A stretch of DNA of 64,000 nucleotides. It comes from a virus. The DNA is taken from the IMG/VR virus record IMGVR_UViG_3300046517_002960, positions 32,001 through 96,000 of that record. The stretch is one strand, 5' to 3'. Positions 15,843-58,481 of this stretch are shown here, in pieces (within the stretch, counting starts at the first letter, position 1; every line of letters begins with the position of its first letter). The position numbers and the translations under genes are program-made. The notes under the pieces are model-generated. The model saw only the letters and a list, made by a program, of their open reading frames with translations. It was not told the origin of the DNA and ran no database searches.

Positions 15843-16264
15843 TCACCACGGCCTGCCTGCCCCGGCGTCCGGCTCCGGCCGGGGCGGGGCGGGCGCGCCC
15901 TTGTGCGCTTCGATCCACTCGCCGATGATCCGCCGGGCGCGGGCCACGCTGTACCCGCCACGGAGCTGGTTGCAGTACACCGGCCGGCCCGCGGCGGGCG
16001 TGCACACCGGGCAGGGGTTGAGACGCCGCCCGGCGCCGTGCGCGGGCCGGATGTTGCGCAGGTCCCAGGCCAGGTCCGGTCGGTCAGCCACCGACTCGAG
16101 ATGGTCCGCCTGAACAGCGCCCCCATGGCCGCAAATATGGCAGACCCCGCCATGGTGCGAGACCGCGTACTTCGCGAACCGGTCCCACCTAATCTGGTGC
16201 CCTTGGTCGGCGCCACGCCATCCGGCTCACGCCGCGGGCTGCGCGGCAGCGGAACGTCGGGCAA
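15843..16264 (-). CDS. HNH endonuclease (phage packaging type), frame-discontinuous at TTA 16190-16192; predicted join(16264..16193,16187..15843)
   Basis: SD GGAGGTG plus TTG start; downstream frame CHICGHGGAVQADH..DLAWDLRNIRPAH..CPVC..CNQLRG has no start of its own. Confidence 0.75.
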
Positions 16265-16309
16265 TCACATCACCTCCCCTGCTCTCACGGTAAAATGCAA
16301 GCAGGAAAT

Positions 16310-16342
16310 GCTGCCGGGAACCGCTGGAACGGCCCCGGCAGC
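16310..16342. terminator. stem-loop between divergent HNH genes
   Basis: gctgccggg / cccggcagc. Confidence 0.4.
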
Positions 16343-16367
16343 GCGAGTCAAATGGAGTGACCCGCCA

Positions 16368-16946
16368 ATGGCTGAGCCTACCAAGCGTTGCTCCCGCTGC
16401 AGGCAGGACAAATCGACGCTGACAGCCTTCTCCAGGAACCGGTCGAGGCCTGATGGGCTCTGCAGCCAATGCAAAGCCTGCGCCCGGCTTCCAGCCCAGG
16501 GCATATGGGGCAGGAGCGCCAGTCACAGTCGCCATCCGCTGTTCCGCATCTGGACAAGCATGCTCGATCGGTGCGAGAACCCGGCTCATCATGCGTATGC
16601 CCGGTACGGCGGCCGGGGCATCTCCGTCTGCAAGCGGTGGCACGACTTCGCTGCTTTCCGGGATGACATCGAATCGCATATCGGACCACGGCCAGCCAGA
16701 AAGACCCTGGATCGCTACCCGGACAACGACGGCAACTACGAGCTCGGGAACGTGCGCTGGGCGACAAAACAAGAGCAGGCAGACGGCCAGACCCGCAACG
16801 GCGGCCTTACCCGGAATCAGATAAACGCGCGGCGTGAGCAGGTTCGCGTAATGCTCGCCGCAGGCAGCACGTACCGGCAGATAGCGGACACGCTAAAACT
16901 GGGTGTCCGCACAGTCCGCAACGACGCTAGTAAGGCTGGCAAGTAG
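16368..16946 (+). mobile_element. free-standing HNH homing endonuclease (N-terminal Zn finger, C-terminal HTH)
   Basis: CSRC..CKAC; WTSMLDRCENP..YGGRGISVCKRW..TLDRYPDNDGNYELGNVRWAT; lower GC; TAAAAT upstream. Confidence 0.9.
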
Positions 16947-17016
16947 AGCGCGACCCCTTCGTCGGCGGCACGCCGTCCGGCTCGCGGCGCGGGCTGCGCG
17001 GCAGCGGGACGCTCAT
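16927..17016 (-). pseudogene. orphaned original 5' end of the packaging-type HNH gene
   Basis: MSVPLPRSPRREPDGVPPTKGSR, then runs into antisense of the homing endonuclease and stops; duplicate of 16193-16264. Confidence 0.75.
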
Positions 17017-17046
17017 ACTCAAGACGATAACGACAGGAGGCAGCTC

Positions 17047-17310
17047 ATGAAACGTGCCTGGTTCGCCGGCACGGACGGCACCTACTACCGGAACTGCCCG
17101 CTGATCATGGCCGAGCAGCAGCGCTGCCTGCGGCGGCCGTGGCGGTACCGGCTGTTCTGGCAGCTGGACGCCGAATGGCACGAGGTCTTCCGCCAGGGCG
17201 TCAAGCGGAAGGACCGGCTCGGCCGCGGCGACGTGCTCGTGCAGCCACGGCCGTTCCGCGAGGCCTACCCGGACAAGCCGGGCCTCTGGCAGCTGGACGA
17301 GTACCGGTAG
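17047..17310 (+). CDS. hypothetical protein
   Basis: RBS caggagg. Confidence 0.65.
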   Translation: MKRAWFAGTDGTYYRNCPLIMAEQQRCLRRPWRYRLFWQLDAEWHEVFRQGVKRKDRLGRGDVLVQPRPFREAYPDKPGLWQLDEYR

Positions 17311-17329
17311 CGAGAACAGGAGACAGATC

Positions 17330-17548
17330 ATGGACGACGACCTGCCCGCGGTACACCTGGCGCGCCCGCACGAGATCCAGCTGCGCAGCCGCATCCTGGA
17401 CGGCGGCAAGCTGCGCGAAGTGACCTCCACCGCACGGGTAGCCGGCACGTCCCGGGCCTGGGAGATCTACACGCGCTGGAACGGCCGTCCCAAGGTGATC
17501 AAGCTGCGGCCGGACGACCTGGCTGCCGTCACGGACCCCTACGAGTAA
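17330..17548 (+). CDS. hypothetical protein (SH3-like size)
   Basis: RBS gaacaggagac. Confidence 0.65.
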   Translation: MDDDLPAVHLARPHEIQLRSRILDGGKLREVTSTARVAGTSRAWEIYTRWNGRPKVIKLRPDDLAAVTDPYE

Positions 17549-17560
17549 CAAGAGGCACAC

Positions 17561-17824
17561 ATGAGCACCACCGAGATCCCGGACCTGATCCAGCGCGGCA
17601 CCGTGGGGCCGGTCACCTACTACGCGGACCCGGATGCCCTGGACCGGTACGCGCTCTGGATCCGGGTGATCCGCTGCGGCGGCGAGTTCCGGGTCACCGT
17701 GTTCCGGCTGGACCTCGAGCTGCGCGCGTTCGACTACCTGCCCCGCGAGGCAGTGCCGGACGGGCCGCTGGACGCGGCCACGGTGACACAGCTGGCCCGC
17801 GAGGCGCTGGGCGGGCAGGCATGA
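17561..17824 (+). CDS. hypothetical protein
   Basis: ORF in operon. Confidence 0.65.
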   Translation: MSTTEIPDLIQRGTVGPVTYYADPDALDRYALWIRVIRCGGEFRVTVFRLDLELRAFDYLPREAVPDGPLDAATVTQLAREALGGQA

Positions 17825-18087
17825 CGACGGGCCTGGGATACCGCTGGGGCACCAGCGGGTGGCTGATCGACCCGGTGCTGTACCGGATCCTCCTGTTCAG
17901 CGCATGGACCGGCAATGAGGCGTACCTTTTCACGGACCCGCACGTCCGGGCCTGGGTAGCGGTGCCGCTCACGGTGGGCCTGACAGCGCTGACCGGGGTC
18001 TGGGTGCTCCTGCCGCTGCTCGCCTGGGCACGGGCTTACCTGCACCGGGGGCACCCTCGCCGGCGGCTGCAGGACGGCCCGCGGTGA
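17821..18087 (+). CDS. membrane protein
   Basis: Two hydrophobic segments; coupled at both ends. Confidence 0.6.
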   Translation: MTTGLGYRWGTSGWLIDPVLYRILLFSAWTGNEAYLFTDPHVRAWVAVPLTVGLTALTGVWVLLPLLAWARAYLHRGHPRRRLQDGPR

Positions 18088-18599
18088 GGGGCATCACCCC
18101 GGCGGTGCTGCTGGAAGACCCGAAGTACCCGCATAACGTCGGGATCGCGTTCCGCGCCTGCGCGCTGCTCGGCGTGGCACAGCTGTGGTACACCGGCACC
18201 CGGGGCGAGAGCGCCTGGCGGGAGCTGCGGCGGCTGCCGCGCGAGGAGCGGATGCCCCGGTACACGGCCCGGACCGAGCTGATCGCCGCGCCGGGCCGGT
18301 GGACAGGCGAGTTCCCGCCGGGCACCGTGCCGGTCGCGGTGGAGGTCAGCCCCACGGCGGAGGACCTGACCTGGTTCGAGCACCCGCAGGACGCGGTGTA
18401 CGTGTTCGGGCCGGAGGACGGGTCGCTGTCCAAGGGCACCCGGTCGGCGTGCCACCGGTTCGTGACCCTGCCGAGCGACGGGCCGCTGAACCTGGCCGTC
18501 GCGGTCGGCGCGGTGCTGATGGACCGGCGCGTCAAGGCGATCGCGGCCGGGCGGGAGGAGTCCCGGGGCGCCTACAAGCGCGTCCGGTCCATCGTCTGA
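18084..18599 (+). CDS. SPOUT (SpoU/TrmH/TrmL-family) RNA 2'-O-methyltransferase
   Basis: LEDPKYPHNVGIAFRAC, VFGPEDGSL, LNLAVAVGAVL; single domain, 171 aa. Confidence 0.85.
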   Translation: MRGITPAVLLEDPKYPHNVGIAFRACALLGVAQLWYTGTRGESAWRELRRLPREERMPRYTARTELIAAPGRWTGEFPPGTVPVAVEVSPTAEDLTWFEHPQDAVYVFGPEDGSLSKGTRSACHRFVTLPSDGPLNLAVAVGAVLMDRRVKAIAAGREESRGAYKRVRSIV

Positions 18600-18627
18600 A
18601 CCGGAAACGAGAACAGGAGACAGCTAC

Positions 18628-19293
18628 ATGTTCAGCATGGAGATCCCCGGCACGAACGGTAACACGCTGGTCGTCCAGAGCGACGGCCCCGGCCAGGTCA
18701 CGGTCAGCGTCCTCGGCCCGCGGGGCGGCGAGCTCGGCAGCGCTGCCCTGACCGAGCGTACGGCGGCCCAGGCGGCGACCGCGCTCATGCACGCCTACCA
18801 GGGCCGCTGGACCAGCACGCCAGTCCGGGAGAACGGCACGGGCCTTCCCGGGGGCAGCCGGCTCACGTACTTCGACTACCGCAAGGCCTGGTTCGGCAGC
18901 AGCGAGCGGACGATCGGCATCGCCGCGGCCGTCAGCGAGGCTGGCGGCGGCGATGCCTGGAATTTCGAGGTGGCCGAGGTGAACCTGGGCCAGTACGGCA
19001 CCGCGCTGCAGGTGCGGGTGTTCGATGACGGGTTCGCCGCGTTCGCCGAGCTGCCGGAGTTCTTCGCTGCCCTGGCGGCAGGCGGCCCGGAGACCCTGGA
19101 CGGCGTCGTGGTGCTGCTGGAGGACCTGGGGGCGGCTGACCGGACTGCCACCGAGCCGCCGTACCCGCCAGAGGCGGACCCGGTGGAGAAAGCGGCGGCG
19201 GTCATCCGGAACCACCCCTCCGGGACCCGGGACCGCAAGCAGGCCCTGGCCGTGGCGGCGGCGGTGCTGGCCGAGCTCGGGCTGAGCCCGTGA
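18628..19293 (+). CDS. hypothetical protein
   Basis: RBS gaacaggagac. Confidence 0.7.
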   Translation: MFSMEIPGTNGNTLVVQSDGPGQVTVSVLGPRGGELGSAALTERTAAQAATALMHAYQGRWTSTPVRENGTGLPGGSRLTYFDYRKAWFGSSERTIGIAAAVSEAGGGDAWNFEVAEVNLGQYGTALQVRVFDDGFAAFAELPEFFAALAAGGPETLDGVVVLLEDLGAADRTATEPPYPPEADPVEKAAAVIRNHPSGTRDRKQALAVAAAVLAELGLSP

Positions 19294-19511
19294 GCGCTGC
19301 GCCGCGGATGGAGGACAGCTGCCCGCACCAGCCCCGGCTGGCGTACTGCGATGCCTGCTCGTCGGTGCCGCGGATGTCCCGGTGGGCGGTAACGCTGACC
19401 GGGTACCAGCTAGCCGATGCGCTCGAGACCATCGACCGCGAGCCCCGCTACTACCAGCCGCCAGAACGCAAGGCGGTCCTCATCGAGGCCGCCCGGCGGC
19501 TGCGGCCGTAA
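19290..19511 (+). CDS. small Cys-containing protein
   Basis: GTGA overlap; CPH..CDAC. Confidence 0.55.
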   Translation: MSAAPRMEDSCPHQPRLAYCDACSSVPRMSRWAVTLTGYQLADALETIDREPRYYQPPERKAVLIEAARRLRP

Positions 19512-19538
19512 GACAGCGACGAGAACAGGAGAACGATC

Positions 19539-19940
19539 ATGGCAGTTACCCAGCACCGGACCGGGTTCTTCCTGACCGGGGACCTGGCCGTGAGACTCAC
19601 GGTCTTCGACCACCACTGCCCGCAGGTCCCGGACAGCGCCTGGGAGGCGTTCGAGCGCGGCTGGCGGCACGCGCACGGCAGCGACGTACCCGGCGGCGGC
19701 ACGATCACCGGGTACGTGACCGGCCACGCAGGCTGGACCTGGGACACCACGTTCACGGACGGCACCGTCGTCATCGGCGACCCGGACGGGCCGCTGTCCC
19801 TGGAAAGCGAGCCAGCCGGGCCGGGAGGCTGCCGCATCGTCTTCTGGGACGACGGGACGCCGTACGACACCGGGCTGCGGGTCTGGGAGGGCGAGGCAGG
19901 CATCATCGCCGCGCTGCTGCGCGAGCACAAGGACAGCTGA
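19539..19940 (+). CDS. hypothetical protein
   Basis: RBS gaacaggagaa. Confidence 0.7.
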   Translation: MAVTQHRTGFFLTGDLAVRLTVFDHHCPQVPDSAWEAFERGWRHAHGSDVPGGGTITGYVTGHAGWTWDTTFTDGTVVIGDPDGPLSLESEPAGPGGCRIVFWDDGTPYDTGLRVWEGEAGIIAALLREHKDS

Positions 19941-19958
19941 GGGAGCAGGAGAACGACC

Positions 19959-20582
19959 ATGACAAGCACGATCTACCTCTACGAGGACAACGCCGGCGGG
20001 CTGCACGCGCGCAAGGACGACGGCCCGGTCTGGGACTTCGGCACCTGCGGCGCCATCACTGGCCCGGAACCCCGGATGTTCCTGCCCGACGCGCTCGCCT
20101 GGCTGAAGGGCGACTGGGAGCCCGGCGAGAACGACGGCCAGCACACCTGCGGCGACACCGAGCCTGCCGAGGGGAACAAGCTGATCGCCACCTGCGACGA
20201 CGAGCGCGTCACCGTGATCCGGGAGCACGGCGAGCCGGTCGCGGGCGGGTCCGGCCGCGCCTACCTCGGCCCCGAGCTGCTGGCGCTCCCCCCGGAGCAG
20301 GCCCCGAAGCGGCAGTGCTACTGGGTCCCGGAGGAGCAGTTCGATGACGAGGGCTGGATCCCCTCGCTGGTGACCGAGGGCGAGCCGGGCCATGACCCGT
20401 TCACCGGCAAAGGCCCGTGCGCCAGCCCGTGGCACTGGGGACGGACCCTGGACGAAGCGCGGGCGACCGCGGCGCGGATGAACGAGCAGGACTTTCACCT
20501 CTCGGAGCAGGACGTGCTGGAGATCAGGCTGTCGTCCATAGCGGCGCACCTGGCCGCGGGAGGCGAGCGCAGGTACAGCTGA
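19959..20582 (+). CDS. two-domain hypothetical protein
   Basis: RBS caggagaa. Confidence 0.7.
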   Translation: MTSTIYLYEDNAGGLHARKDDGPVWDFGTCGAITGPEPRMFLPDALAWLKGDWEPGENDGQHTCGDTEPAEGNKLIATCDDERVTVIREHGEPVAGGSGRAYLGPELLALPPEQAPKRQCYWVPEEQFDDEGWIPSLVTEGEPGHDPFTGKGPCASPWHWGRTLDEARATAARMNEQDFHLSEQDVLEIRLSSIAAHLAAGGERRYS

Positions 20583-20751
20583 GCACGCTCACCACCCGCG
20601 ACCGGACAGCGCAGGCCAGGCCCCCGTGCAGGTCCAGGCCGGCCCGGTCACGGGCGGAGGGCGGGCCGGCGGGTTGCCCCCCGGGCCTGAGCAGCGCCAG
20701 CAGCCCTGGTCCCGGGTTCCCGGGGCACTCGGCCGGCCGTCCCTCCGCCTG

Positions 20752-21468
20752 TCACGGCGCGGTCCACCAGTCCAGCCGCATGACCTTCTCCGTGGCCAGC
20801 CCGGCCGGAATGCGGCGGCCGTCCGGACCGGGCAGCCACACCCGGGCGCAGGCATTGATCACCACGTCGTCGCTGCAGTACGGCCAGGTCCACAGCGGCT
20901 CCCGGGTCATCCCCAGCGGCTCGAGCACCGCGCCCAGCGGCGCCCCGGTCTCCTCCAGGGCGCGCAGCGCGTCCGCGCCGCCCGGGCAGTCCCGGACCCG
21001 GCCGGGGATGACCAGCGAGGTAACCCGGGCGCACAGCCGGCTGCCGCGGGCGGTGCGCAGCTCGCCGCGGCGCCGCAGCGCCAGTATCCGGCCGTCCAGG
21101 TGCGTGACCAGGTGCTTGCGCTCGCCCGCCGTCATCGGCGTGGTGCCGTCCCGCACCACCCGGGCAGTGACCGGCTCGCCGGCGTACTCCCCGGCCAGGT
21201 TCGTGAACAGCTCCCCGGCGGCCATCCGGCGGACCAGGGCGCCCACGGGGCTGACGTCGTGCTCGTCCGGGAGCAGGGTGGGCAGGCCCCCCGGCGGCCC
21301 CGGCAGGCGCTCGTCCAGGGCACGGGTGATGCCCGCCACCTTGGCGGCGTCCGGGGCGTCGGCGTCGGCGATGCGCCGGATGACGGCGATGACGTCGAAG
21401 AACGTGCCGAGCAGGGACAGGTCGGGGGGCAGGTCAAGGCCGGCGGAGGGCGCGGGTGTCTGCTGCAT
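20752..21468 (-). CDS. possible chorismate-lyase/UTRA-fold protein
   Basis: RRRGEL..CARVTSLVIPGRV..LEETGAPLGAVL; TACTTT box 6 nt before ATG (leaderless). Confidence 0.45.
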   Translation of the reverse strand: MQQTPAPSAGLDLPPDLSLLGTFFDVIAVIRRIADADAPDAAKVAGITRALDERLPGPPGGLPTLLPDEHDVSPVGALVRRMAAGELFTNLAGEYAGEPVTARVVRDGTTPMTAGERKHLVTHLDGRILALRRRGELRTARGSRLCARVTSLVIPGRVRDCPGGADALRALEETGAPLGAVLEPLGMTREPLWTWPYCSDDVVINACARVWLPGPDGRRIPAGLATEKVMRLDWWTAP

Positions 21469-21573
21469 GAACCGAAAGTAGTCCCGCGGTCACGCAAAAG
21501 CGATCAGCAGAGCGTAGTTTTTTCACGCTCAGTAGCACGCCGGTTACAATGCGGAGGCTCAGAGGTGCGGCCG

Positions 21574-22561: not shown

Positions 22562-23320
22562 TTACTGCCGCCCCCCGCCCCCGGCGTGACGGCCGGGCGG
22601 CGGGTCAGGCAGCGGCGGCGGGTCCGGCGGCGCGGCGGCGATGTCGGCCAGCTGCTTCTCCCACCGGTCCAGCCCGGCGCCGCACTCGGCCAGGATAGCC
22701 CGCAGCATCACGGTCAGGCTGTCCCCGAACGCGTTCAGCCGGGTCACCCGGGCCTGGGCCTCCACCGGCCCCTCGGCGGCGATCCGGGCCGCGGTCAGCC
22801 GGGCCTGGGCCTCGGCCTCGGCGGTGGTCCGGGCGGCGACGGCCTCAGCCTCGGCCAGGGTCCGGCCGGCCCGCTCCCGGGTGGTCCGCATCAGCTGCGC
22901 CGCGGTCTGCCGGGCGTCGTCCAGCTGGGCGTCGGCGGTGCGCTGGGCCGCGTCCAGCAGCCGCAGCGCGTCGGCCCGGGCCTGCTCCCGGCCGCTCTCG
23001 CCGCGCAGCCGGTCCCGCTCGGAGCGGGTCAGCCGCAGCTCCCCGCGAAGCTGGCCCACCTCGGCGTCGGCCGCCGACCGGGCGGTGGCCAGCTCCGAGC
23101 GGACGCTGCCCGCCTCGGCGCGGGCGTCCCGCAGCTGCCCGGCACACGCCTTCTGCGCGTCCTGCGCGTCCCGCAGCGCGCCGGCGCACCGGGTCAGGAA
23201 CTCGCGGACCTGCACCGGGTCCAGGCCGCCCCGGCGGACGGTCATGAGATCGGCGGCGGTGATGTCATCCGGGGACAGCGGGCCGGCCGGCGGCCTGCCT
23301 CCCGGTGCCTGCGAGGTCAC
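22562..23320 (-). CDS. divIVA: DivIVA-domain coiled-coil protein
   Basis: LSPDDITAADLMTVRRGGLDPVQVREFL followed by a long coiled coil. Confidence 0.75.
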   Translation of the reverse strand: MTSQAPGGRPPAGPLSPDDITAADLMTVRRGGLDPVQVREFLTRCAGALRDAQDAQKACAGQLRDARAEAGSVRSELATARSAADAEVGQLRGELRLTRSERDRLRGESGREQARADALRLLDAAQRTADAQLDDARQTAAQLMRTTRERAGRTLAEAEAVAARTTAEAEAQARLTAARIAAEGPVEAQARVTRLNAFGDSLTVMLRAILAECGAGLDRWEKQLADIAAAPPDPPPLPDPPPGRHAGGGGRQ

Positions 23321-23321
23321 G

Positions 23322-24452
23322 TCAGTCTCCCCACTGCTCGGCGTGGACCTGCCCGCCGGGCACGCCGAGGCCGATCAGGCGGCCGGTGGTGACCTGGACC
23401 ATCGCGGGAGACCCGCACACGTAGCACTCCCAGCCGGACCAGTCGCCGTCGCGGGCGGCCACGTCGATGACGGTGCCGCGGGCGCCGTCCCAGGAGGCGG
23501 GGGCGCGACCGGACACCGCCGGGACCACCTCCAGCCACGGCCGGGCGCGGGCCTTGGCGGCCAGGGCGTCCAGGTCGTACAGCCCGTCCGGGGTCTGCGC
23601 GCCGAAGTACAGCCGGACCGCGGGCGGGTCCGGGCGGGCGGCCAGCTCCTCCAGCATTGCCGCCAGCGGGGCCAGCCCGGTCGACCCGGCCAGCATCAGC
23701 ACCGGCCGGGGCGTGGCGGCCAGGGTCAGGACCCCGGACGGGGCCGACAGCCGCATCGCGTCGCCCGGGGCGGCCCGCGCGGTGATCGCCGTGGAGAAGA
23801 TCCCGCCGTCGACCGCGCGCACGTGGAAGATCATCGTCCGGCCGTCGCCGGGCGGGTTGGCCGGCGACAGCGGGCGGCGGAACCGGGGCAGCCCGGAGCC
23901 CCGGCCCGGGTCCCGGGTGCCCAGCCACTCGGCCAGCACCGACTGCCCGGCCGTCCAGGCCATCGGGACGGCCAGCCGCACGGCCAGTACGGCGATGTCG
24001 GCGGTGCGGTGCGCGACATCGGTCACGGTGGCGTCCCAGGCGCGCGGCAGGCCGTCGTCCTCGGTGAACGCGGCGGTCATCAGCTTGGCCAGCGCGGTGT
24101 AGGCCTCCGCCCATTCCGCGGCCAGGTCCTCGGTCCAGTCCGCGCCCTTGTGCGCGGCCAGCGCGTACAGCAGCGCGCTGCCGACCAGGTCCCAGTCGCC
24201 GGGCTCGGGGCCGTAGAACCGGTGGTTCTTGCCCAGGCCGCGGGCCAGCTGCGCCAGCACGGCCTCGTCGTCCAGGTGGGTGAGGACCTTCAGCAGCGCG
24301 GCCAGCAGCCGGTCCCGCTGCCGGTCCATGCCGGGCGGGAACATCTCCATCACCCGCTGGCCCCCGGCGCGGAACAGCTCGGCGTAGAACAGCCGGGCCA
24401 GCTCCGCGGTATCGACTCCGGACAGGCTGGCGGCCAGGATCTGGGCATCCAC
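23322..24452 (-). CDS. globin + FAD/NAD-binding oxidoreductase (flavohaemoglobin-like)
   Basis: FYAELF..MFP..QRDRL..LGKNHRFYG; FHVRAVDGGIFS; LAGSTGLAP; YVCGSPAMV; SD GGGAGG before GTG. Confidence 0.88.
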   Translation of the reverse strand: MDAQILAASLSGVDTAELARLFYAELFRAGGQRVMEMFPPGMDRQRDRLLAALLKVLTHLDDEAVLAQLARGLGKNHRFYGPEPGDWDLVGSALLYALAAHKGADWTEDLAAEWAEAYTALAKLMTAAFTEDDGLPRAWDATVTDVAHRTADIAVLAVRLAVPMAWTAGQSVLAEWLGTRDPGRGSGLPRFRRPLSPANPPGDGRTMIFHVRAVDGGIFSTAITARAAPGDAMRLSAPSGVLTLAATPRPVLMLAGSTGLAPLAAMLEELAARPDPPAVRLYFGAQTPDGLYDLDALAAKARARPWLEVVPAVSGRAPASWDGARGTVIDVAARDGDWSGWECYVCGSPAMVQVTTGRLIGLGVPGGQVHAEQWGD

Positions 24453-44605: not shown

Positions 44606-45479
44606 TCAGCGGCGGACGCTCGGCACCGAGGGATCGGAGTGCCCGGGGCAGCCCGGACCCCCGTCCCGCGCGCTCTGCGGCCTGTAGAAGGGGCACCAGA
44701 ACAGCTAAGAAACATCCGTCGTCAGTCGGGGTGCGCGGCACCGCCGAGATCGGGATGTTTCTTGCCATCACCTCCCCCGCGATCTGGCGGCGGATGGCCG
44801 TCTTGCCCAGCACGGCCTCGATGACCACGTCGTCCAGCGCGCTGTACTGGTGCTCCCAGACGTACATGGAGTCCAGGGTCGGCTCGGTCCGCGGCAGCGC
44901 GGCCAGCACGATCCGGTCGACCGGCAGGCCCAGGTTGCGGTAGCCGAGCGCGTACAGCAGGAGCTGGATCTGGTACCGCTGCGGCGGGCCTTCCGGGCGG
45001 CGGATCTTGGCCAGCGATGTCGGGCCGAGGACCTTCCAGTCCACGACCGCGTGATAGGCGGTGTCGTAGAGGTCCGCCGTGCCGGGGTAGGACGGGTGCG
45101 GGGATACCCGCTGCTCGGTCAGCCAGCGCGGCACGGGCAGCCCGTTCAGCTGGTTCTCGAGCTGGAATTTCTCGGCCAGCCAGGCGTGCACCGCGGTGCC
45201 GACGATGGACGGCCACGGATCCGGCACGTGGTTGGTCACCGGCTCCCCGGCCAGCTTGCCGACTACCGCCCGGTCGCAGACGTCGCCGATCTCGGAGGGG
45301 CCGAGGTGGGCCTGCATGTTCCGGGGCTGGCGGTGCGCCTGGCGGTTGATGATCTCCAGCAGCTCGTGCGCGTACAGCGACGCCCAGGCGGAGTTGCCGT
45401 TCGGGAGCGTCGGCGCGGTGCCCATGAACGAGGCCGGGTCCATGAACTCGGCCGGGCTGATGCGCGGGCGGTCAGCCAC
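44606..45479 (-). CDS. Cas4-like PD-(D/E)XK exonuclease, frame-discontinuous at TTA 44706-44708; predicted join(45479..44709,44698..44606)
   Basis: GPSEIGDVCDR, GTAVH, TEQRV, GTADLYD, DWK, YQIQLLLY; C-terminal CF|WCPFY..GCPG split over two frames. Confidence 0.85.
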
Positions 45480-48867: not shown

Positions 48868-49257
48868 GTGATCATGAGTACTGACCAGAACAGCCGCACC
48901 CTGGCCCAGCTGCAGGATGACGCCGCGCTGAACGCCGATGTGGACCGGAACCGGTTCGCCGTGCCCGCCATCCGCCGGATTGTCGCCGAGGCCTGGATGG
49001 GCGGCCGGGCGGAGGTGAAGGCTGAATCGGCCGTGCCGGACGGCAGCTGGCAGGAAGCGCTGAACTGGCTCAAGGCGTGCCTCCAGGGCTATGACTACCT
49101 GCTGATCGAGCCGGAAGAAGGCCTGGCAGCCTGGCAGGAAGCTCGCGCCCGTGGCGAGCAGCGCATCATCGCTGCCTGTGCGAGAGTTGCCGCGCTGGCC
49201 GGACTGACGGAGGACCAGGCACAGCTCCTCGCGAAACTTGCGGAGCCGCAGTTATGA
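48868..49257 (+). CDS. hypothetical protein; last sense codon is TTA
   Basis: RBS ggaggtg; ends CAG TTA TGA. Confidence 0.65.
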   Translation: MIMSTDQNSRTLAQLQDDAALNADVDRNRFAVPAIRRIVAEAWMGGRAEVKAESAVPDGSWQEALNWLKACLQGYDYLLIEPEEGLAAWQEARARGEQRIIAACARVAALAGLTEDQAQLLAKLAEPQL

Positions 49258-50290: not shown

Positions 50291-50953
50291 ATGAGCACCA
50301 TGACGGAGGCGCGGCCAGCCAGGCCGGCCCGTACCGACATCCGCCGGCCGGCGTCGGGGATCGTCATCGACCCGGCCGGCCTGACCTGGTGGCGGGATCG
50401 CCGCGCGATGTCCCGCCAGGACCTGTCCGACATGATCACTGTGCTGTGGCTGGACGGCCACCCGGACGCGCTGGCGTTCTGGCACGCCGCCGGGCCGCCC
50501 GGTGACGGGCATGCCGCCGCGCCGCCGCGCCCGGTTCCGGGCAGCACGGCCGATCCCCGGGTCTGCACGGTGTGCGGCGCCAAGATCAAGGGCGGCCTGA
50601 CCCGCGACGGGATCGCCAAGATAGAGCACCCCGATCCCGCCCGCGGCAGGCGGCCGAAAGCCCGCACCCTGCGGGCGCTGTGCGCGGCGCTGAGCACCAG
50701 TGACGAACCGGTCCTGCCCAGGCACCTGCAGCCAGGCGGGCCTGAGCTGCCGCTGTCCGCCGCCGCCCAGGACCGGCAGGCCCGCAAGTACTACAACGAC
50801 GCCATGGTCGGTTTCGCGGACGCGCTGGGCCGGCCGGAACTTTACACCAACAGCGCGGGCCGGCGGTATTACAGTAAGGAACTGCGCGAGATGTACGAGC
50901 AGTACCTGGCGCAGACCCGGGCCGGGACAGGCAGCACGGCCCGCGTGGCGTAG
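50291..50953 (+). CDS. XRE-like HTH protein with insertion and Lsr2-like C-terminal domain
   Basis: LTWWRDRRAMSRQDLS..TRDGIAKIE..PKARTLRALCAAL. Confidence 0.65.
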   Translation: MSTMTEARPARPARTDIRRPASGIVIDPAGLTWWRDRRAMSRQDLSDMITVLWLDGHPDALAFWHAAGPPGDGHAAAPPRPVPGSTADPRVCTVCGAKIKGGLTRDGIAKIEHPDPARGRRPKARTLRALCAALSTSDEPVLPRHLQPGGPELPLSAAAQDRQARKYYNDAMVGFADALGRPELYTNSAGRRYYSKELREMYEQYLAQTRAGTGSTARVA

Positions 50954-50999
50954 CCCCGCCCGCCGCCCCGGCATCACGCAGCCGGCACCAGGAGGATCC

Positions 51000-51134: not shown

Positions 51135-51139
51135 CGCCC

Positions 51140-52291
51140 GTGACCCCGCAGGAACAGCAGGCTGCGAAAGAGGCCGCCAAGAGGGTCACCGCCAGCCTGG
51201 CCTACATCGCCCGCCGGTACGGCCGCCTGACGGACGCGACCGCCCAGGCGACCGCGTACATGCAGCAGGTCAGCCACGCGTGGTACGCCGCGGGTGGCAG
51301 CGTCTCCCCCGGCAGCGGGCAGGACGCGAGCACGGGCCTGGCTCAGGTCCCGGGGGTTGCCTGGGGCTCAGCGGGCGGGAGCGCCGCGGGCAGCGTGACC
51401 CTGAGCGGCGGCGGAAGCGCCAGCCCCGGTCCGGGCGGCGGGGGCGGCGGGTTCACGCAGGTCCCGGGGGTTGCCTGGGGCAGTGCGGGCGGGAGCACGG
51501 CCAGCGCGAGCCTGGCTGGCGGTGCCTCGCGGAAGACAGCTCCCCGCATTGCCTCGGACGGGTTCAGCGATACCGAGCCCCCGGTCGTCGCCGGCTCCGT
51601 CACCGGTTACCGGTGGTGGACGCTTGCCGCCCCGGACCTGGCCGGCAACCCGCTGGAAGCCGACCGGTACTGGGACCCGGAGCGCGCGGCCAGGCTGCGC
51701 GGGGCCTGGGCCGCCTGGCAGCCGGGCGTCAACTTCGCGCAGTGCCTGGCCTACCAGGGCGCGGCGGCAGGCCATGACCCGGCACTTCTTCCGGCTAAAG
51801 GCTGCGGCTGCGGGTTCTGGGCGTACTGGGGCCTGCAGCAGTCCTCGCTGACCCGGCCCGGCACGCTGCCGGTGTTCGGCGTCATCAAGGGTTTCGGCCG
51901 GACCCGGACCGGCGCGCACGGCTTCCGCGTCGCCAAGGCCCGGATCCTGGCCGTGCACCTGCCGCTGGTCATCGGGAACCGGCAGCACATGCTGGACGAG
52001 CTGGCCCGTCGTGAGGCCGTCCGCCGGGCGATGTTCACCGGCCGGGTGATCAATGTCGGCACGGACCACGTGCCCGGGCCGCTGGGCGGCGCTCTCCCGG
52101 CGCCGGAACCGGTGCCCGAGCCGCCGCCGGAGGAGATCGCCGCGGACGAGGCCCGGGGCGAGGCGTGGCTGGCGGTGATCGGCGACCGGATCGAGCAGGC
52201 CTACCCCGGCGTCCGCGTGTTCGAGACGCGCGACGCGCTGCTGAAGACCTTCCCGCCGGACGCGGTGTACGGGCGGGGACAGCAGGCGTGA
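51140..52291 (+). CDS. hypothetical protein (GYRWW..AQC..H..CGCGFWA family)
   Basis: Conserved-looking Cys/His motif; internal QVPGVAWGSAGGS duplication. Confidence 0.7.
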   Translation: MTPQEQQAAKEAAKRVTASLAYIARRYGRLTDATAQATAYMQQVSHAWYAAGGSVSPGSGQDASTGLAQVPGVAWGSAGGSAAGSVTLSGGGSASPGPGGGGGGFTQVPGVAWGSAGGSTASASLAGGASRKTAPRIASDGFSDTEPPVVAGSVTGYRWWTLAAPDLAGNPLEADRYWDPERAARLRGAWAAWQPGVNFAQCLAYQGAAAGHDPALLPAKGCGCGFWAYWGLQQSSLTRPGTLPVFGVIKGFGRTRTGAHGFRVAKARILAVHLPLVIGNRQHMLDELARREAVRRAMFTGRVINVGTDHVPGPLGGALPAPEPVPEPPPEEIAADEARGEAWLAVIGDRIEQAYPGVRVFETRDALLKTFPPDAVYGRGQQA

Positions 52292-52449
52292 TCCTCATCT
52301 TCGCCCTGGCCGGCGCTAGCGTCGTGCTCGTCATCGCCGGGCTGGCGTACGCGCTGTACGACGCGAGCAGGCCGCAGCGCCCCCGTTTATGTAAGTACGG
52401 AAACCCTGGTCAGAGCCTATGTTTAGCTAACATGTTTGACAATGTTTAA
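52288..52449 (+). CDS. small membrane protein with two TTA codons
   Basis: GTGA overlap; N-terminal TM; TTA at 52387 and 52423. Confidence 0.45.
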   Translation: MILIFALAGASVVLVIAGLAYALYDASRPQRPRLCKYGNPGQSLCLANMFDNV

Positions 52450-52823: not shown

Positions 52824-52943
52824 CCTGACTTTTATGCACGTGTGAATGCAAATTACCGTTGCACGTGCATTGTCGGGTAGACTGTATAGGACAGCGAAGG
52901 ACAAAGAACTTCGCGCATCAGGATCACGATCAGGAGACAGTAC

Positions 52944-53393: not shown

Positions 53394-53402
53394 CCCGGAC
53401 TG

Positions 53403-53442
53403 CCCGCGCCGTCCGGGGGAGCGAGGGGGAGGGCGGCGCGGG
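53403..53442 (+). terminator. stem-loop after the secreted protein gene
   Basis: cccgcgccgtcc / gggcggcgcggg. Confidence 0.55.
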
Positions 53443-53589
53443 TACTTCTCAGGTAAGCAGCGCCCGGCTCGCGGATCAGCTTCCGCGGGCCGGGCGTTTG
53501 CATGCCCGGCCTAAAGAACACAGCCTTCCGCGGGAATGTCACCGCCCGCCTTTACCCTGGCGGCAGCCAGCTTCCCGCAGGAGAGAGAA

Positions 53590-53650
53590 ACCAGCTGTGT
53601 GCGTGGAATTTGACGCACACAGCTGGTCGGGCATAAGCTGTAGGTACAGC
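53590..53650 (+). promoter_or_regulatory. TTGACG-N18-TAAGCT promoter overlapped by a perfect 15-bp inverted repeat
   Basis: ACCAGCTGTGTGCGT-N8-ACGCACACAGCTGGT; GCTGTA-GG-TACAGC downstream. Confidence 0.6.
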
Positions 53651-53698
53651 GGAAGTACGGCAACAGACCGAGAACACCAACGATCAGGAGATCAGCGC

Positions 53699-55024
53699 AT
53701 GTCACAGACCCCCACCATCGAAGCGCGCAACGCCGGGCTTGAAGACATCCTCACCATCCTGCAGGAGCAGCGGGCGCGGCGTCTGGACGTCGTGATCCGC
53801 GAGCGGATGATCGACGCCCTCGGCGGCAAGGTCCTCGTCCGGGCCGGAGACTCCACCCAGTGGGTCACCGAGGACGGCGTCACCTCCGCCGCCGGCGTCT
53901 ACCGGCCCACCGCGGTCGGTGACGAGGGCCTGGCCGCGCTGCTCGGCGTGGACGGCGGCTTCCTGAAGAAGCTGCGCCGGCTCGATCCCGCCCGTACCGA
54001 CATGTGGGATGCCATTGTCAACGGCTTCCTGCACGGCGGTGCCGAGACCATCGACGGCGAGGACCGTAATTACCCGCCGTACGACGGCGCGATCCTGCTC
54101 CGCCTGCTCAAGGGCGACGAAGCACAGACAGACGGCGTGCTGCGCGCTGCGCTGTCGCCCCGGTACAAGATCATCGACAACCTGGATGTGCTGCTCGCCG
54201 TCATGGACGGGCTCCGCAAGGCCGGGGTGAACGCCATCCCGGACGTGTCCGACCTGACCGACCGGCGGATGCACGTCCGGTTCTCCGTCCCGGAGATCGC
54301 CGCCTACGCGCCGCAGCTGCTGGAAGGCTACCGGTCCCCGTTCGACGGCCCTGGCGGGCTCAAGCGGGCCGGCCAGGGCAACCGCCCCGGCATGAAGCTG
54401 GACGTCGGCCACTTCGGCGTCGGCGAGCAGGCCCTGCAGCGCGGGCTGGCCGCCGCCAGGGGCGAGCGCAAGGACTACGCGCCCGGCTCCGAGCCCATCG
54501 TGTTCGCCGGGCTCAAGGTCACCAACTCCGACGTGGGCGAGGGCGCCCGCACGATCGCGCCGGAGATCGTCGTGCAGATCTGCGGCAACCGGCTCACCCT
54601 CACCGCCTCGGCTGACCGGGCCGTGCACCTCGGCCGCCAGCAGGACGAGGGCGTGATCGAGTGGTCCGCCGACACCATGGAGAAGGAGCTGGAGCTCATC
54701 ACCGCCCAGGCCGCTGACGCGGTGCAGACCTTCCTCACGCCCGAGTGGTTTTTCGGCGAGGTGGAGAAGATCGAGGCGCTGGCGGGCAAGCCGGTGGAGC
54801 GGGCCGAGGAGGTCATCAAGGACGTCTCCAGGGCGGCCGGGTTCACGCAGTCCGAGGCGAGCGACATCCTGGCGCATTTCCTGCGCGGCGGGGCCTACAC
54901 CGCCGGCGGGGTGGCCAACGCCGTCACCTCCGTCAGCCAGACCCTGGACAACGCCGACCGCGCTGCCGAGCTGGACGCCAAGGCCGTGCCGGTCATGGCC
55001 CACGCCGCCCGGCTAGCGGGCTAG
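53699..55024 (+). CDS. DUF932-family protein
   Basis: RAALSPRYKIIDN, NSDVG, VQICGN, HLG. Confidence 0.75.
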   Translation: MSQTPTIEARNAGLEDILTILQEQRARRLDVVIRERMIDALGGKVLVRAGDSTQWVTEDGVTSAAGVYRPTAVGDEGLAALLGVDGGFLKKLRRLDPARTDMWDAIVNGFLHGGAETIDGEDRNYPPYDGAILLRLLKGDEAQTDGVLRAALSPRYKIIDNLDVLLAVMDGLRKAGVNAIPDVSDLTDRRMHVRFSVPEIAAYAPQLLEGYRSPFDGPGGLKRAGQGNRPGMKLDVGHFGVGEQALQRGLAAARGERKDYAPGSEPIVFAGLKVTNSDVGEGARTIAPEIVVQICGNRLTLTASADRAVHLGRQQDEGVIEWSADTMEKELELITAQAADAVQTFLTPEWFFGEVEKIEALAGKPVERAEEVIKDVSRAAGFTQSEASDILAHFLRGGAYTAGGVANAVTSVSQTLDNADRAAELDAKAVPVMAHAARLAG

Positions 55025-55028
55025 CCAC

Positions 55029-55066
55029 CTGCCCGGCCCGGGTGCTGCATCACCCGGGCCGGGCAG
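55029..55066 (+). terminator. 16-bp perfect stem-loop
   Basis: ctgcccggcccgggtg / cacccgggccgggcag. Confidence 0.7.
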
Positions 55067-55111
55067 CCCCATCCTGGGTACCATCACAACACTGACGATC
55101 AGGAGACAGCG

Positions 55112-55327
55112 ATGCCCGACCTGGACCTCTCGGACCTGCCGGAGGATGACGACCTGCTGGTCTCGGCCCGGCAGGCCCTGGCTGGCGAGACCACGTACCT
55201 GCACCTGGGCGGCCGGGTGATCGCCGCCATCGTGCCGGAGTACGTGGCGCAGGAGCACGACGAGGACATCAGCGCCGAGGTAGCGGGCGCCGGGGTAGAG
55301 GACGACGCCTCGGCCCTGGCGCCCTGA
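55112..55327 (+). CDS. small acidic protein
   Basis: RBS gatcaggagac. Confidence 0.65.
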   Translation: MPDLDLSDLPEDDDLLVSARQALAGETTYLHLGGRVIAAIVPEYVAQEHDEDISAEVAGAGVEDDASALAP

Positions 55328-55372
55328 CCCTCCGCCCGCAAGCAGGACCAGACACAGATCAGGAGACAGCAG

Positions 55373-55930
55373 ATGACCAGGACCCCCGACACCGACACCT
55401 GGACCTGGATCAAGCGCGCCATCGCGGTCGCGCTGTTCCTCGTCCTCCCCTTCGCGGTCGCCGCGTGCAAGAGCAGCAGCAGCTCCGAGGCTCAGGCCGG
55501 CAAGTCTGCCGCCGCCTCGGTCACCGCCAACCCGGCCTTCATCAAGGCCAAGGCCCTGGTGGCGCACTGTTTCGCCGGCACCCCGGTGCAGCAGGCCCAT
55601 CAGGCGCACCTGGTGTTCTTCTCCAGCGAGAACGGCAAGCACGGCGACGAGGTGAAGAAGGCCCGGGCCACGCTGCTCGGCTGCCTGGGCATCAGCAAGT
55701 CCGACGAGACCCCGTTCTTCAACGACGCGGTCACCCAGGCCAAGTACGGCAAGGTGCTTCTCACGCACGACGGCCGGGTCACCTACTTCGGGACCACGCT
55801 GCCGAACATCGTCCTGAAGTACTCCAGCGCCTACACCCCGCCCGCCAGCCCCGGCGCGGGCACCGTCCCGGGCGCCAGCGATGCGCCGATGCCGACCGCG
55901 ACCCCCGTCACGACAGGAGCCACCTCATGA
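55373..55930 (+). CDS. putative lipoprotein
   Basis: Hydrophobic stretch ending FAVAAC plus Ser linker. Confidence 0.7.
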   Translation: MTRTPDTDTWTWIKRAIAVALFLVLPFAVAACKSSSSSEAQAGKSAAASVTANPAFIKAKALVAHCFAGTPVQQAHQAHLVFFSSENGKHGDEVKKARATLLGCLGISKSDETPFFNDAVTQAKYGKVLLTHDGRVTYFGTTLPNIVLKYSSAYTPPASPGAGTVPGASDAPMPTATPVTTGATS

Positions 55931-56136
55931 GCGAGCAGGTCACGTACCGGGAACTGTTCGAGAAGTACGCCCGGCGCGAGCAGCGCCGTGACATCGCGGC
56001 CATCGTCAGCGGTGTCGCCGCGGTCGTCGGGCTGGCCGGCTCGGTGCTGGCCCTGCGGGAGCTGAAGGCCGACCGGGCCGCCGTCCAGGCCGTGCAGGCT
56101 GCCCGCCGCCCGGGCCGGCCCGCCGGGAGGCCGTGA
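55927..56136 (+). CDS. small membrane protein
   Basis: ATGA overlap; one TM. Confidence 0.6.
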   Translation: MSEQVTYRELFEKYARREQRRDIAAIVSGVAAVVGLAGSVLALRELKADRAAVQAVQAARRPGRPAGRP

Positions 56137-57242
56137 TGACCGCCATCCCGGTGGAGCCGGAGCGCCCTGTCGTCACGAAGCGGCCCGGGCGCAAGTCCAC
56201 CGACCTGCCGCGGATCCGGCCGCTGTCCTGGCTCGGCCTCGAATCGGTCGCCTGGGGCGTGGTCATCGCGCACCTGATCAAGTGGGCGGTGTCGTTCGGC
56301 TACTACGTCGCCTGGCAGGTCAAGTACGGCGTCGGCCAGGCATCCGGCCCCGGGTACTTCACGGTCTGGAACGGCAAGGACTTCTGGGACCGCCTGGTCA
56401 TCCACATCCAGAACGGGCTGCCCGGCGAGGTCGCCGTCCTGGCCGGGATCGCGGTCGCGGTCATCGCGGGCCTGGTGTTCTGGCTGGTCGCCCGGCCGGA
56501 GCGGGCCTGGTCCAAGGCGCTCGTCACCGGGCTCGCCGTGGCCTGCGGGACCGGCGCGGCGCTCGGCATTGCCTGGCAGCTGGCCGGCTGGCACGTGCAC
56601 TGGTTCCCGACCCAGGAGGAGCCCGCCTGGTGGGTGACGTGGCGGCACGACGCCCGCGACGTCGGCATCGCCGTGATCGCCACCATCATCGTCCGGCTCC
56701 TGTTCGTCAAGCCGAAGTACCCGGCTGACGACAACCCCGGCTGGAAGGTCTACGCCACCTCCGTGCCGAAGGCGATCAGCCTGGCGCTCATCCCCATCGC
56801 GCTGATCGGCGTGCTGGCCTGGAAGGTGCCGTGGCTGATGCAGCACGGCTGGAAGGTCCCGGCGAACTGGGGCGTGTACGCGTCCGAGGTAAACGGCTGG
56901 ATAGAGGCCGGAACCTGGATCACGGTCGTCATGGGCATCCTCGGCGGTCTCGCCGCCAGCAAGGCCATCCAGCGGGTGGCGGACGACATCCAGTGGTTCA
57001 TGGCCGAGCGCTCGGCCGGGCACGTCCGGTCCGAGAGCGGCCTGGACGCCCTGCGCGGCAACCGGGTAATCGGCAGCCCGTCGCACCGTCTCCGCACGCG
57101 CTGGATGCTGGGGCGCTCCCTGACGCTGCCGTCCCGCAACCCCTGGCTGGTCCGCGCCCTGGTCTTCGCCGGGTTCGTCACGCTGGTCTTCGCCGGCGCC
57201 GGCGCCTGGCTCAACCTGTTCGGCCCGGCCGCACCGCACTAG
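56133..57242 (+). CDS. multi-pass membrane protein
   Basis: About 7-8 hydrophobic segments. Confidence 0.75.
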   Translation: MMTAIPVEPERPVVTKRPGRKSTDLPRIRPLSWLGLESVAWGVVIAHLIKWAVSFGYYVAWQVKYGVGQASGPGYFTVWNGKDFWDRLVIHIQNGLPGEVAVLAGIAVAVIAGLVFWLVARPERAWSKALVTGLAVACGTGAALGIAWQLAGWHVHWFPTQEEPAWWVTWRHDARDVGIAVIATIIVRLLFVKPKYPADDNPGWKVYATSVPKAISLALIPIALIGVLAWKVPWLMQHGWKVPANWGVYASEVNGWIEAGTWITVVMGILGGLAASKAIQRVADDIQWFMAERSAGHVRSESGLDALRGNRVIGSPSHRLRTRWMLGRSLTLPSRNPWLVRALVFAGFVTLVFAGAGAWLNLFGPAAPH

Positions 57243-57259
57243 GACAGGAGGACACGAGC

Positions 57260-57655
57260 ATGTTCTACTGCGACCCGTGCCGCCGCAAGCGGCAGTGGCC
57301 GGAGTCCCTGGCCCGCAGCCGCGGCTCATGCGAGGTGTGCGGCCAGGCGGCGGTGTGCTACGACATGCCCAGCCCCCGGCTGTCGGCGCCCGGAGCCGGG
57401 GGTCCCTACCCCGATCGCGAGCACGGCGGCGGCGCCGAGGCGACCCGGTACCGGTACTTTGTCACCTATCCCGGCGAGCCTGAACGCGAGGTGGACGTGC
57501 ACGAGTGGCGCGCCGCCGAGCAGGCTGCCGGGTTCTGGCCGAAGCTGGGACCGGGACACAACGCGACAGCCGGGTTCGGAGGCAAGGGGATCCGCGGCCG
57601 GATGCAGCTGATCCCCGCCGGCCCCGGGCACCTGCGCACCGGCAGGCTGCTGTGA
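57260..57655 (+). CDS. Zn-finger hypothetical protein
   Basis: RBS caggagg; YCDPC..CEVCG..C. Confidence 0.65.
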   Translation: MFYCDPCRRKRQWPESLARSRGSCEVCGQAAVCYDMPSPRLSAPGAGGPYPDREHGGGAEATRYRYFVTYPGEPEREVDVHEWRAAEQAAGFWPKLGPGHNATAGFGGKGIRGRMQLIPAGPGHLRTGRLL

Positions 57656-57987
57656 CCGCGTACCTGCTGCCGGCCAGCGGAGCCTGCGACCCGTCGCTGT
57701 GCCGGGCGCCCAGCTACCACGTATTCCTGCACGGGGCGCTGGCCTGCCAGTGTGGCGCGGAGATCATGGAGTCCTCGCCATGCGGGCCGGGCTGCGAGCG
57801 GCCTGGCCAATCATCCGGCCGGCCGGAGAATCCGGTCAGCTGCCCGTCCTGCGGCTCCCCCGACCGCGGCGAGCTGTACTACGTCGCCGGGCGCAACGAG
57901 CCGGTCAGCTGCAGCAGCGACTGGCACGACCCGGATGCCCGCGGGCCGGACGACGACCCTCACAACGATCAGGAGACACGTACGTGA
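57652..57987 (+). CDS. Cys-rich hypothetical protein
   Basis: GTGA overlap; CPSCGSPD..C..DWH. Confidence 0.55.
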   Translation: MTAYLLPASGACDPSLCRAPSYHVFLHGALACQCGAEIMESSPCGPGCERPGQSSGRPENPVSCPSCGSPDRGELYYVAGRNEPVSCSSDWHDPDARGPDDDPHNDQETRT

Positions 57988-58481
57988 ATGAAATTACTCG
58001 CACGGCCCTGCTGACATTCCAGGCCCGGGACGAGGGCGTCTCGCCTGACGTGCTGGCCGAGTGGGCCACGGCGCACGGTTTTGCGCCCGGGCCGCCGCAG
58101 CCTGGCCTGGCCAGCTACTACCACAGCACGGGCGATGTCCGGGTGGAAGCCGCCCAGCGGACCCCGCGGTGGATCACGTTCTCCACGAATCATCTCGGCC
58201 CGGGCGAGGAGGCGGTCGCGCGGCTGGTCCTGTGCGCCTGGGCGGAGTTCGGCGGGTCGCTGAACGCTTCCCTCGCGATCCGGGACATCATCCACGAGCG
58301 GGTGCACCAGGCGGACGACGACTACGACAACGATCAGGAGACCTCATTATGTGCGTCACCCTGCACGAAGCCCGGCTCGGCCAGACGGTCATCGCCGGCT
58401 GGCGGAACCCCGCCCGGCGGACCCACGCCCTGCTGTACGGCAACGAGCCGGAGAACCTGGCCGGCGTGCCCAACGCGATGA
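57984..58481 (+). CDS. hypothetical protein; TTA sits where a stop is expected (58347)
   Basis: RBS gatcaggagac; frame runs 133 nt into the next gene after TTA. Confidence 0.6.
   Translation: MNEITRTALLTFQARDEGVSPDVLAEWATAHGFAPGPPQPGLASYYHSTGDVRVEAAQRTPRWITFSTNHLGPGEEAVARLVLCAWAEFGGSLNASLAIRDIIHERVHQADDDYDNDQETSLCASPCTKPGSARRSSPAGGTPPGGPTPCCTATSRRTWPACPTR

What the first reader, a model, noticed from the sequence alone, without database searches (positions are those of the whole stretch)
15843..58349. Candidate multi-gene UUA-sensing system: TTA-triggered ribosomal bypassing plus a TrmL-like methyltransferase
Seen: in a manual scan, in-frame TTA codons in credible genes are nearly absent. 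The ones found are at 16190 (HNH), 44706 (Cas4-like), 49252 and 58347 (gene junctions), and 52387/52423 (small ORF). The two inside conserved genes sit exactly at frame breaks, with matched take-off/landing codons. Known: UUA is read by the developmentally controlled bldA tRNA in Streptomyces; from memory (verify), a 10-nt UUA-initiated coding gap was proposed for the phage phiHau3 terminase gene. Inference: this phage makes functional nucleases only when Leu-tRNA(UAA) is scarce, which would tie recombination and packaging to host developmental state. It may tune that tRNA with its own SPOUT enzyme; DivIVA and flavohaemoglobin fit a life cycle adapted to a mycelial host.
Basis: partly seen in the sequence, partly recalled or inferred. 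Interest (0 to 1): 0.9.

Follow-up and report, generated by a model that had tools for sequence, protein, structure and literature searches.

The report
Seven TTA ribosome hops in phage
Seven genes of this 190-kb soil actinomycete phage, three of them essential for building the virion, carry 5-10 extra bases that start with the almost unused codon TTA and are most likely skipped by the ribosome, a decoding trick that I found published only for the terminase gene of one Streptomyces phage and two prophages.

Summary
The core observation holds and is larger than reported. The HNH (5 nt, AGA to AGG) and Cas4-like (10 nt, TTC to TTC) gaps are fixed exactly by intact homologues. The same genome has five more TTA-led gaps outside the window: terminase, portal, tape measure and two glycosyltransferases. 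In relatives, all 24 frame-changing breaks in the portal start begin with TTA (TTA-blind test). The 37 distinct designs span 4-12 nt and all three frames, and the landing codon usually suits the take-off tRNA, so ribosomal bypassing at an unread UUA is the likely mechanism. The other window TTAs (49252, 52387, 58347) mark gene ends. Gaps are gained and lost repeatedly on the tree and go with an adjacent homing endonuclease (9/23 versus 1/35), as in T4 mobA/gene 60, so they look like endonuclease-immunity scars tolerated because UUA goes unread. A developmental (bldA-type) sensor is possible but unshown; the host is unknown. The SPOUT enzyme is not identifiable as TrmL and does not track the gaps. 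No expression data. The scan found the same phenomenon before on other phage genomes.

The parts
15843..16264 (-). Small HNH nuclease gene (138 aa after the hop), TTG start at 16264
   Evidence: intact homologue P0244 matches across the junction
16188..16195 (-). Hop site 1: take-off AGA 16195-16193, 5-nt gap 16192-16188 (TTAGG), landing AGG overlapping the TTA
   Evidence: relative L060 has a 7-nt TTA gap at the same junction
16368..16946 (+). Antisense free-standing HNH plus HTH homing-endonuclease-like gene inserted into the start of the HNH gene
   Evidence: same family as the ORFs next to gapped portal genes
16948..17016 (-). Older, cut-off copy of the first 23 codons of the HNH gene, ending at the residue that precedes the gap in the live copy
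44606..45479 (-). Cas4/PD-(D/E)XK-like exonuclease gene (about 287 aa after the hop); the hop restores the C-terminal cysteine cluster
44699..44711 (-). Hop site 2: take-off TTC 44711-44709, 10-nt gap 44708-44699, landing TTC 44701-44699
   Evidence: relative L062 has an 8-nt TTA gap one codon later
49252..49254 (+). TTA as last codon of gene 48874-49257, overlapping the next ATG
52288..52389 (+). 33-codon membrane-peptide ORF whose plausible coding part ends at TTA 52387
57984..58349 (+). 121-codon gene that ends at TTA 58347, overlapping the next ATG; the next standard stop is 43 codons further, inside the next gene
   Evidence: homologue in G002 is 120 aa (37% identity)
18084..18599 (+). 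Minimal SPOUT 2'-O-methyltransferase, substrate unknown; judged not part of the system

Best explanation
In cells infected by this phage family UUA is not, or hardly, decoded. A ribosome that reaches a gap stalls with UUA in the A site. The peptidyl-tRNA, often weakly paired on an A/U-ending take-off codon, lets go, slides 4-12 nt and re-pairs at a landing codon it can read, and translation resumes, giving the normal protein (inferred; shown experimentally only for phiHau3). The gaps most likely arose as part of homing-endonuclease cassettes: the element replaces a gene end with a recoded copy plus a tiny insert that spoils its own cut site, as the T4 bypass insert does for MobA. The endonuclease is later often lost and the gap stays. 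Elsewhere TTA is purged from gene interiors and tolerated only at gene ends. A by-product is that virion assembly requires a cell short of charged Leu-tRNA(UAA). Shown: gap positions and lengths, TTA exclusivity, codon matching, endonuclease association, scattered distribution. Inferred: the hop (about 0.88) and the endonuclease origin (about 0.7).
For: Seven gaps in one genome, each fixed by intact homologues. TTA-blind alignment of 76 portal loci: 24 of 24 frame-changing breaks start with an in-frame TTA, plus 12 in-frame TTA-led inserts, and no TTA aligns as ordinary Leu. 37 distinct designs of 4-12 nt in all frames: landing identical 6, synonymous 20, two-of-three 7, weaker 4, against about 12% by chance; take-off ends in A/U in 28 of 37. 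TTA 0-6 per 23-53 thousand codons in ten genomes, and 0 in a 54.7% GC relative that uses CTA 531 times; none of six arrays of 35-46 tRNA calls has Leu-UAA. TTA in called genes mostly sits where homologues end. Endonuclease within 700 nt of the portal start in 9/23 gapped versus 1/35 ungapped loci, p=5.7e-4. Gap status needs 16 changes on a 56-row tree, no more clustered than shuffled labels. The window HNH site keeps the full cassette anatomy. Precedents: PMC10732093; bioRxiv 10.1101/2022.08.31.505936.
Against: No ribosome or peptide data. Six of the seven own gaps and all four dereplicated terminase gap loci have no endonuclease of this family nearby, so the origin there rests on assumed loss. 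The Fisher test is not tree-corrected and its model was built from ORFs next to portal genes. A few landing codons match poorly (TGT to AGC, ATT to GTC). One 5-nt gap without TTA occurs at the glycosyltransferase site of G004, and one strong non-TTA break in its primase gene was not examined. No common stimulatory stem-loop or Shine-Dalgarno element was evident.
Confidence: 0.65

Rival explanations
1. Selected regulatory sensor: hops are kept because they allow virion and nuclease production only when host Leu-tRNA(UAA) is scarce, that is in vegetative bldA-off cells. Compatible with an endonuclease origin.
For: Seven gaps retained in one genome, mostly without an endonuclease, in terminase, portal and tape measure. 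The phage supplies about 39 tRNAs but not Leu-UAA. bldA biology as summarised in PMC10732093. The one named close terminase relative is from a Streptosporangiaceae MAG.
Against: No site is conserved: relatives at 82-88% identity lack the terminase gap and the sister of this portal gene lacks its gap. Positions and lengths vary, and some are in frame. The tRNA array also lacks Leu-UAG, Val-UAC and Ala-UGC. No tyrosine or large serine integrase was found, so a lysis/lysogeny switch has no visible counterpart (record 90% complete). Host and its UUA regulation are unknown.
Confidence: 0.25
2. The phage SPOUT enzyme modifies or inactivates host Leu-tRNA(UAA) and so controls the hops.
For: Minimal SPOUT fold like TrmL, which methylates position 34 of Leu-UAA and Leu-CAA tRNAs in E. 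coli (PMC5372735); 35 of 66 family members hit the TrmL model weakly.
Against: This protein has no TrmL hit; the family profile ranks TrmH and TrmJ above TrmL; found in only 2 of 15 relatives, not in gap-bearing G001 (99% complete) or G004 (100%), and present in G002 with no portal gap. Wobble methylation would be expected to aid, not block, decoding (inference). The phage has its own tRNAs, including Leu-CAA, as possible substrates.
Confidence: 0.04
3. Simple +1/-1 frameshifting at the hungry UUA, with a few extra residues tolerated.
For: The shortest inserts (2-5 nt) have landing codons that overlap the TTA, where frameshift and hop merge.
Against: The same terminase site carries 7, 8 and 9-nt gaps (all three frames) inside a motif contiguous in 107 homologues; the matching codon lies at the far end of the gap; for phiHau3, mass spectrometry in E. 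coli showed bypassing.
Confidence: 0.04
4. The gap is removed at the RNA or DNA level, or the breaks are sequencing errors or dead genes.
For: Flanking codons resemble short direct repeats.
Against: Mismatches concentrate at the wobble position, a tRNA signature; independent contigs carry the Cas4 site unchanged; dozens of independent phages have breaks that start with TTA in single-copy essential genes.
Confidence: 0.02

Closest known systems
UUA-led coding gaps in the large terminase of Streptomyces phage phiHau3 (two of 10 nt) and of the StrepC.1 and S. catenulae prophages (7 nt in the latter); Antonov et al. 2023, PMC10732093, citing Smith et al. 2013
   Same: In-frame UUA right after a take-off codon, a short gap, a landing codon, an essential phage gene, high-GC actinomycete context; the hop gives the functional protein.
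   Different: Published cases are 3 of 100 terminase genes and only that phage gene was examined. Here seven genes of one genome and at least 37 designs in seven gene families; 4-12 nt, in-frame gaps included; landing mostly synonymous or two-of-three; link to homing endonucleases; TTA at gene ends. Host not shown to be Streptomyces.
Phage T4 gene 60 bypass within the mobA homing-endonuclease cassette (bioRxiv 10.1101/2022.08.31.505936)
   Same: An HNH element splits a gene, brings a recoded copy of the lost segment and a bypassed insert that protects against its own nicking; the endonuclease is often lost later.
   Different: T4: 50 nt, stop codon after a matched GGA (own knowledge), elaborate RNA and nascent-peptide signals, one gene. 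Here 4-12 nt, a sense codon UUA, no evident structure, many genes and positions. Protection from cutting is not tested here.
bldA/TTA gating of Streptomyces genes
   Same: Extreme rarity of UUA and dependence on one tRNA.
   Different: Opposite sign: bldA targets need UUA read; these genes need it unread.
TrmL (YibK) SPOUT methyltransferase
   Same: Single-domain SPOUT fold of about 170 aa with the 2'-O-methyltransferase motifs.
   Different: Not matched by the curated TrmL models; its own family, no closer to TrmL than to TrmH or TrmJ; no co-occurrence with the gaps.

Membership tests
phiHau3-type UUA bypass | In-frame UUA directly after the last conserved codon of the upstream frame | tested here: met
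   7 own sites, 24/24 frame-changing portal breaks
phiHau3-type UUA bypass | Flanks contiguous in homologues without the insert | tested here: met
phiHau3-type UUA bypass | Landing codon readable by the take-off tRNA | tested here: met
   26 of 37 identical or synonymous, 7 two-of-three, 4 weaker
phiHau3-type UUA bypass | Stem-loop and internal Shine-Dalgarno as proposed stimulators | tested here: inconclusive
   No common flanking structure; GC3 is depressed upstream at most portal and terminase sites; no shuffle control
phiHau3-type UUA bypass | Trans-frame protein and junction peptide | not testable with these tools
   Needs reporters and mass spectrometry
bldA-dependent sensor | Host with developmentally delayed Leu-tRNA(UAA) | tested here: inconclusive
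   Host unresolved; tRNA pattern too strict
mobA/gene 60-type cassette | Homing endonuclease gene next to the gap with a duplicated, recoded gene segment | tested here: met
   Window HNH site; 9/23 versus 1/35 portal loci; not seen at the other six own sites
mobA/gene 60-type cassette | The insert blocks cleavage by the endonuclease | not testable with these tools
   Needs a nicking assay
TrmL | Hit to the curated TrmL model above cut-off | tested here: not met
TrmL | Minimal single-domain SPOUT fold | tested here: met
   Pfam SpoU_methylase 1e-13 over residues 8-145 of 171
TrmL | Methylates position 34 of Leu tRNAs | not testable with these tools
   Homology is a poor guide: PMC12772374
UUA reassigned to stop | A large share of genes end in TTA and a dedicated release mechanism exists | tested here: not met
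   Only 1-5% of genes end at TTA; no RF-1 domain found in G000

The most novel reading that the evidence does not exclude
UUA is an effectively unassigned codon throughout infection in this whole phage family (the host never supplies charged Leu-tRNA(UAA), or the phage removes it and replaces nearly every other tRNA). UUA then serves as punctuation, hop inside genes and de facto end at gene ends, and homing endonucleases exploit it as a general, intron-free way to sit in or next to essential genes.
Probability: 0.35. Interest if true: 0.9.

Novelty: new variant of a known kind. Interest (0 to 1): 0.78.

Why it matters
Programmed bypassing is known from very few systems (T4 gene 60 and relatives, yeast mitochondrial inserts, the phiHau3 terminase). 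A natural series of dozens of independently evolved short gaps gives a ready grammar (take-off wobble, landing match, gap length) for the open question of how ribosomes hop at hungry codons, and makes the ten-year-old sensor hypothesis testable against a selfish-element origin. It also means that terminase, portal and tape-measure genes in this soil phage group are often mis-annotated as truncated or split.

Tried and rejected
An ab initio scan for take-off/landing pairs did not separate TTA from control codons; homology was needed. Cas4 single-protein scan of viral contigs found nothing; the HNH has no match among named phages. Smith et al. 2013 was not held. No RNA holder listed. TT before ATG is at chance level, 4/204, so TTATG overlaps alone prove nothing; the gene-end reading rests on homologue lengths. 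TTA as a bulk fourth stop codon: rejected for this family. Host assignment failed: flavohaemoglobin is about 41% identical to many actinomycetes; the tRNA-Leu(UAA) pattern hit only 34 of 201 genomes and is too strict to show absence. tmRNA search gave only tRNA-like hits in G000. The terminase gap loci L005-L029 were found with a TTA-containing pattern, and the scan used a seed that selects against that gap, so terminase counts are not blind; the portal counts are. Four non-TTA terminase breaks lie in the poorly aligned N-terminus.
Full report
Setting. The window is bases 32001-96000 of a 190,216-bp, 70.9% GC phage record. It encodes 39 tRNAs, with Leu-CAG, CAA and GAG but no Leu-UAA. A self-trained gene call gave 2 TTA among 51,734 codons, against 32-63 for other rare codons.

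The two sites in the window. In the Cas4-like gene the upstream frame ends at TTC 44711-44709, then TTA; skipping 10 nt to an identical TTC resumes in the frame that encodes the cysteine cluster. Homologues at 78-87% identity read straight through this junction with the same C-terminus; decoding the TTA would add 257 unrelated residues. In the HNH gene, 24 codons from a TTG start end in AGA, then TTA; skipping 5 nt to AGG resumes the nuclease core, and intact P0244 is almost identical across the junction. Contigs from two runs, one of 2020 from another study, span the Cas4 site without any difference.

Five more sites in the same genome, all on the minus strand and beyond the window (contig coordinate of the first T). 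Terminase C1:182853 (8 nt, GAA to GAG; 107 relatives contiguous), portal C1:179341 (8 nt, TGG to CGG), a glycosyltransferase C1:165348 (7 nt, GCT to GCT), tape measure C1:123581 (10 nt, ATT to GTC) and a second glycosyltransferase C1:128815 (6 nt, in frame, CCT to CCC, a lead from e1-5877503 that I checked). In whole-genome comparisons every strong frame break in this genome starts with TTA.

Relatives. The terminase site recurs with 7, 8 and 9-nt gaps. HNH relatives have gaps at a second junction, one of them at both; a Cas4 relative has one a codon later. A frameshift-aware alignment that knows nothing of TTA found inserts in 32 of 76 portal loci: all 24 frame-changing breaks and 12 in-frame inserts start with TTA, at six positions, and no TTA aligned as a normal leucine. 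Over 37 distinct designs the last codon of the gap is identical (6), synonymous (20), two-of-three (7) or weaker (4) relative to the take-off codon, against about 12% by chance, and take-off codons end in A or U in 28 of 37. Weak pairing at take-off and equal or better pairing at landing is what peptidyl-tRNA re-pairing predicts; nucleic-acid excision or a one-base frameshift does not predict it.

TTA elsewhere. Ten genomes have 0-6 TTA per 23-53 thousand called codons; one at 54.7% GC has none while using CTA 531 times; no tRNA array has Leu-UAA. Where TTA does occur it mostly lies at the point where homologues stop, including two terminases. The window TTAs at 49252, 52387 and 58347 look like this kind; only 58347 has a homologue to compare. 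Only 1-5% of genes end so, so this is tolerance of an unread codon at gene ends rather than a fourth stop codon.

Origin. At the HNH site an antisense HNH-HTH endonuclease gene (16368-16946) sits between a cut-off old copy of the first 23 codons and a new copy that carries the gap. The same endonuclease family lies within 700 nt of the portal start in 9 of 23 gapped and 1 of 35 ungapped loci (p=5.7e-4, not tree-corrected). Gap status is scattered over the portal tree: 16 changes, at least 10 forced by well-supported branches, no fewer than shuffles. This matches the T4 mobA element, whose bypass insert protects against nicking and outlives the endonuclease (bioRxiv 10.1101/2022.08.31.505936). 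Against it, six own gaps and the terminase gaps have no such neighbour today.

Regulation. Bypassing makes virion assembly depend on scarce Leu-tRNA(UAA), the logic proposed for phiHau3 (PMC10732093). Whether that dependence is selected is open: retention of seven gaps favours it, rapid turnover and the lack of any conserved site argue against it, no integrase was found and the host is unresolved.

The SPOUT gene. It is a minimal SPOUT 2'-O-methyltransferase with no TrmL hit; its family ranks TrmH and TrmJ at or above TrmL. It was found in 2 of 15 relatives and does not track the gaps. In Streptomyces even the TrmL homologue acts at position 32 of other tRNAs (PMC12772374). I leave it out of the system.

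Known and new. The published cases are three terminase genes; two literature searches found no wider survey. The multi-gene, multi-position series, the wobble grammar, the endonuclease link and TTA at gene ends go beyond that, so: new variant of a known kind. Other agents of this scan reached similar readings on other genomes; these are leads, not support. Everything mechanistic remains inference until junction peptides are seen.

Noticed in passing
G000:C1:182853, 179341, 165348, 128815, 123581 (all minus strand; beyond the window): Five further TTA-led gaps of the same system: terminase (8 nt), portal (8 nt), two glycosyltransferases (7 nt; 6 nt in frame) and tape measure (10 nt), each fixed by intact homologues.
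   Followed up: yes
G004:C1:81355 (-): 5-nt gap with matched TCC codons but no TTA at the glycosyltransferase hop site; a decayed site, an error, or a second trigger.
   Followed up: partly
G006:C1:111947-112138 (L223): The relative with zero TTA codons encodes an RF-1-domain GGQ protein resembling a ribosome rescue factor, and a tmRNA-like hit at C1:18994-19075.
   Followed up: partly
L002 (C1:149960-157547): tRNA array of about 38 genes lacks Leu-UAA, Leu-UAG, Val-UAC and Ala-UGC; an HNH-like ORF lies just before it near C1:149700.
   Followed up: partly
window 50686-50777 (-): Lone tRNA-Leu(CAG) call lying antisense inside a coding gene; possibly spurious.
   Followed up: no
C1:13611-14323 (+): Free-standing HNH_3-type endonuclease with no TTA gap found in the neighbouring genes.
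   Followed up: partly
L060:560-850: HNH gene with two tandem TTA gaps (7 and 5 nt), like the two-gap phiHau3 terminase; portal genes L082, L095 and L097 also have two.
   Followed up: yes
L101:12534: 11-nt portal gap whose apparent landing triplet is TGA after a TGG take-off.
   Followed up: no
G004:C1:199050 (-): Strong frame break without TTA in the primase-like gene.
   Followed up: no
L071, L081, L121: Terminase genes with inserts of about 700 nt, probably inteins or introns.
   Followed up: no
window 22562-24452 (-): DivIVA-like coiled-coil gene next to a flavohaemoglobin about 41% identical to actinomycete chromosomal copies.
   Followed up: partly
   Followed up: no
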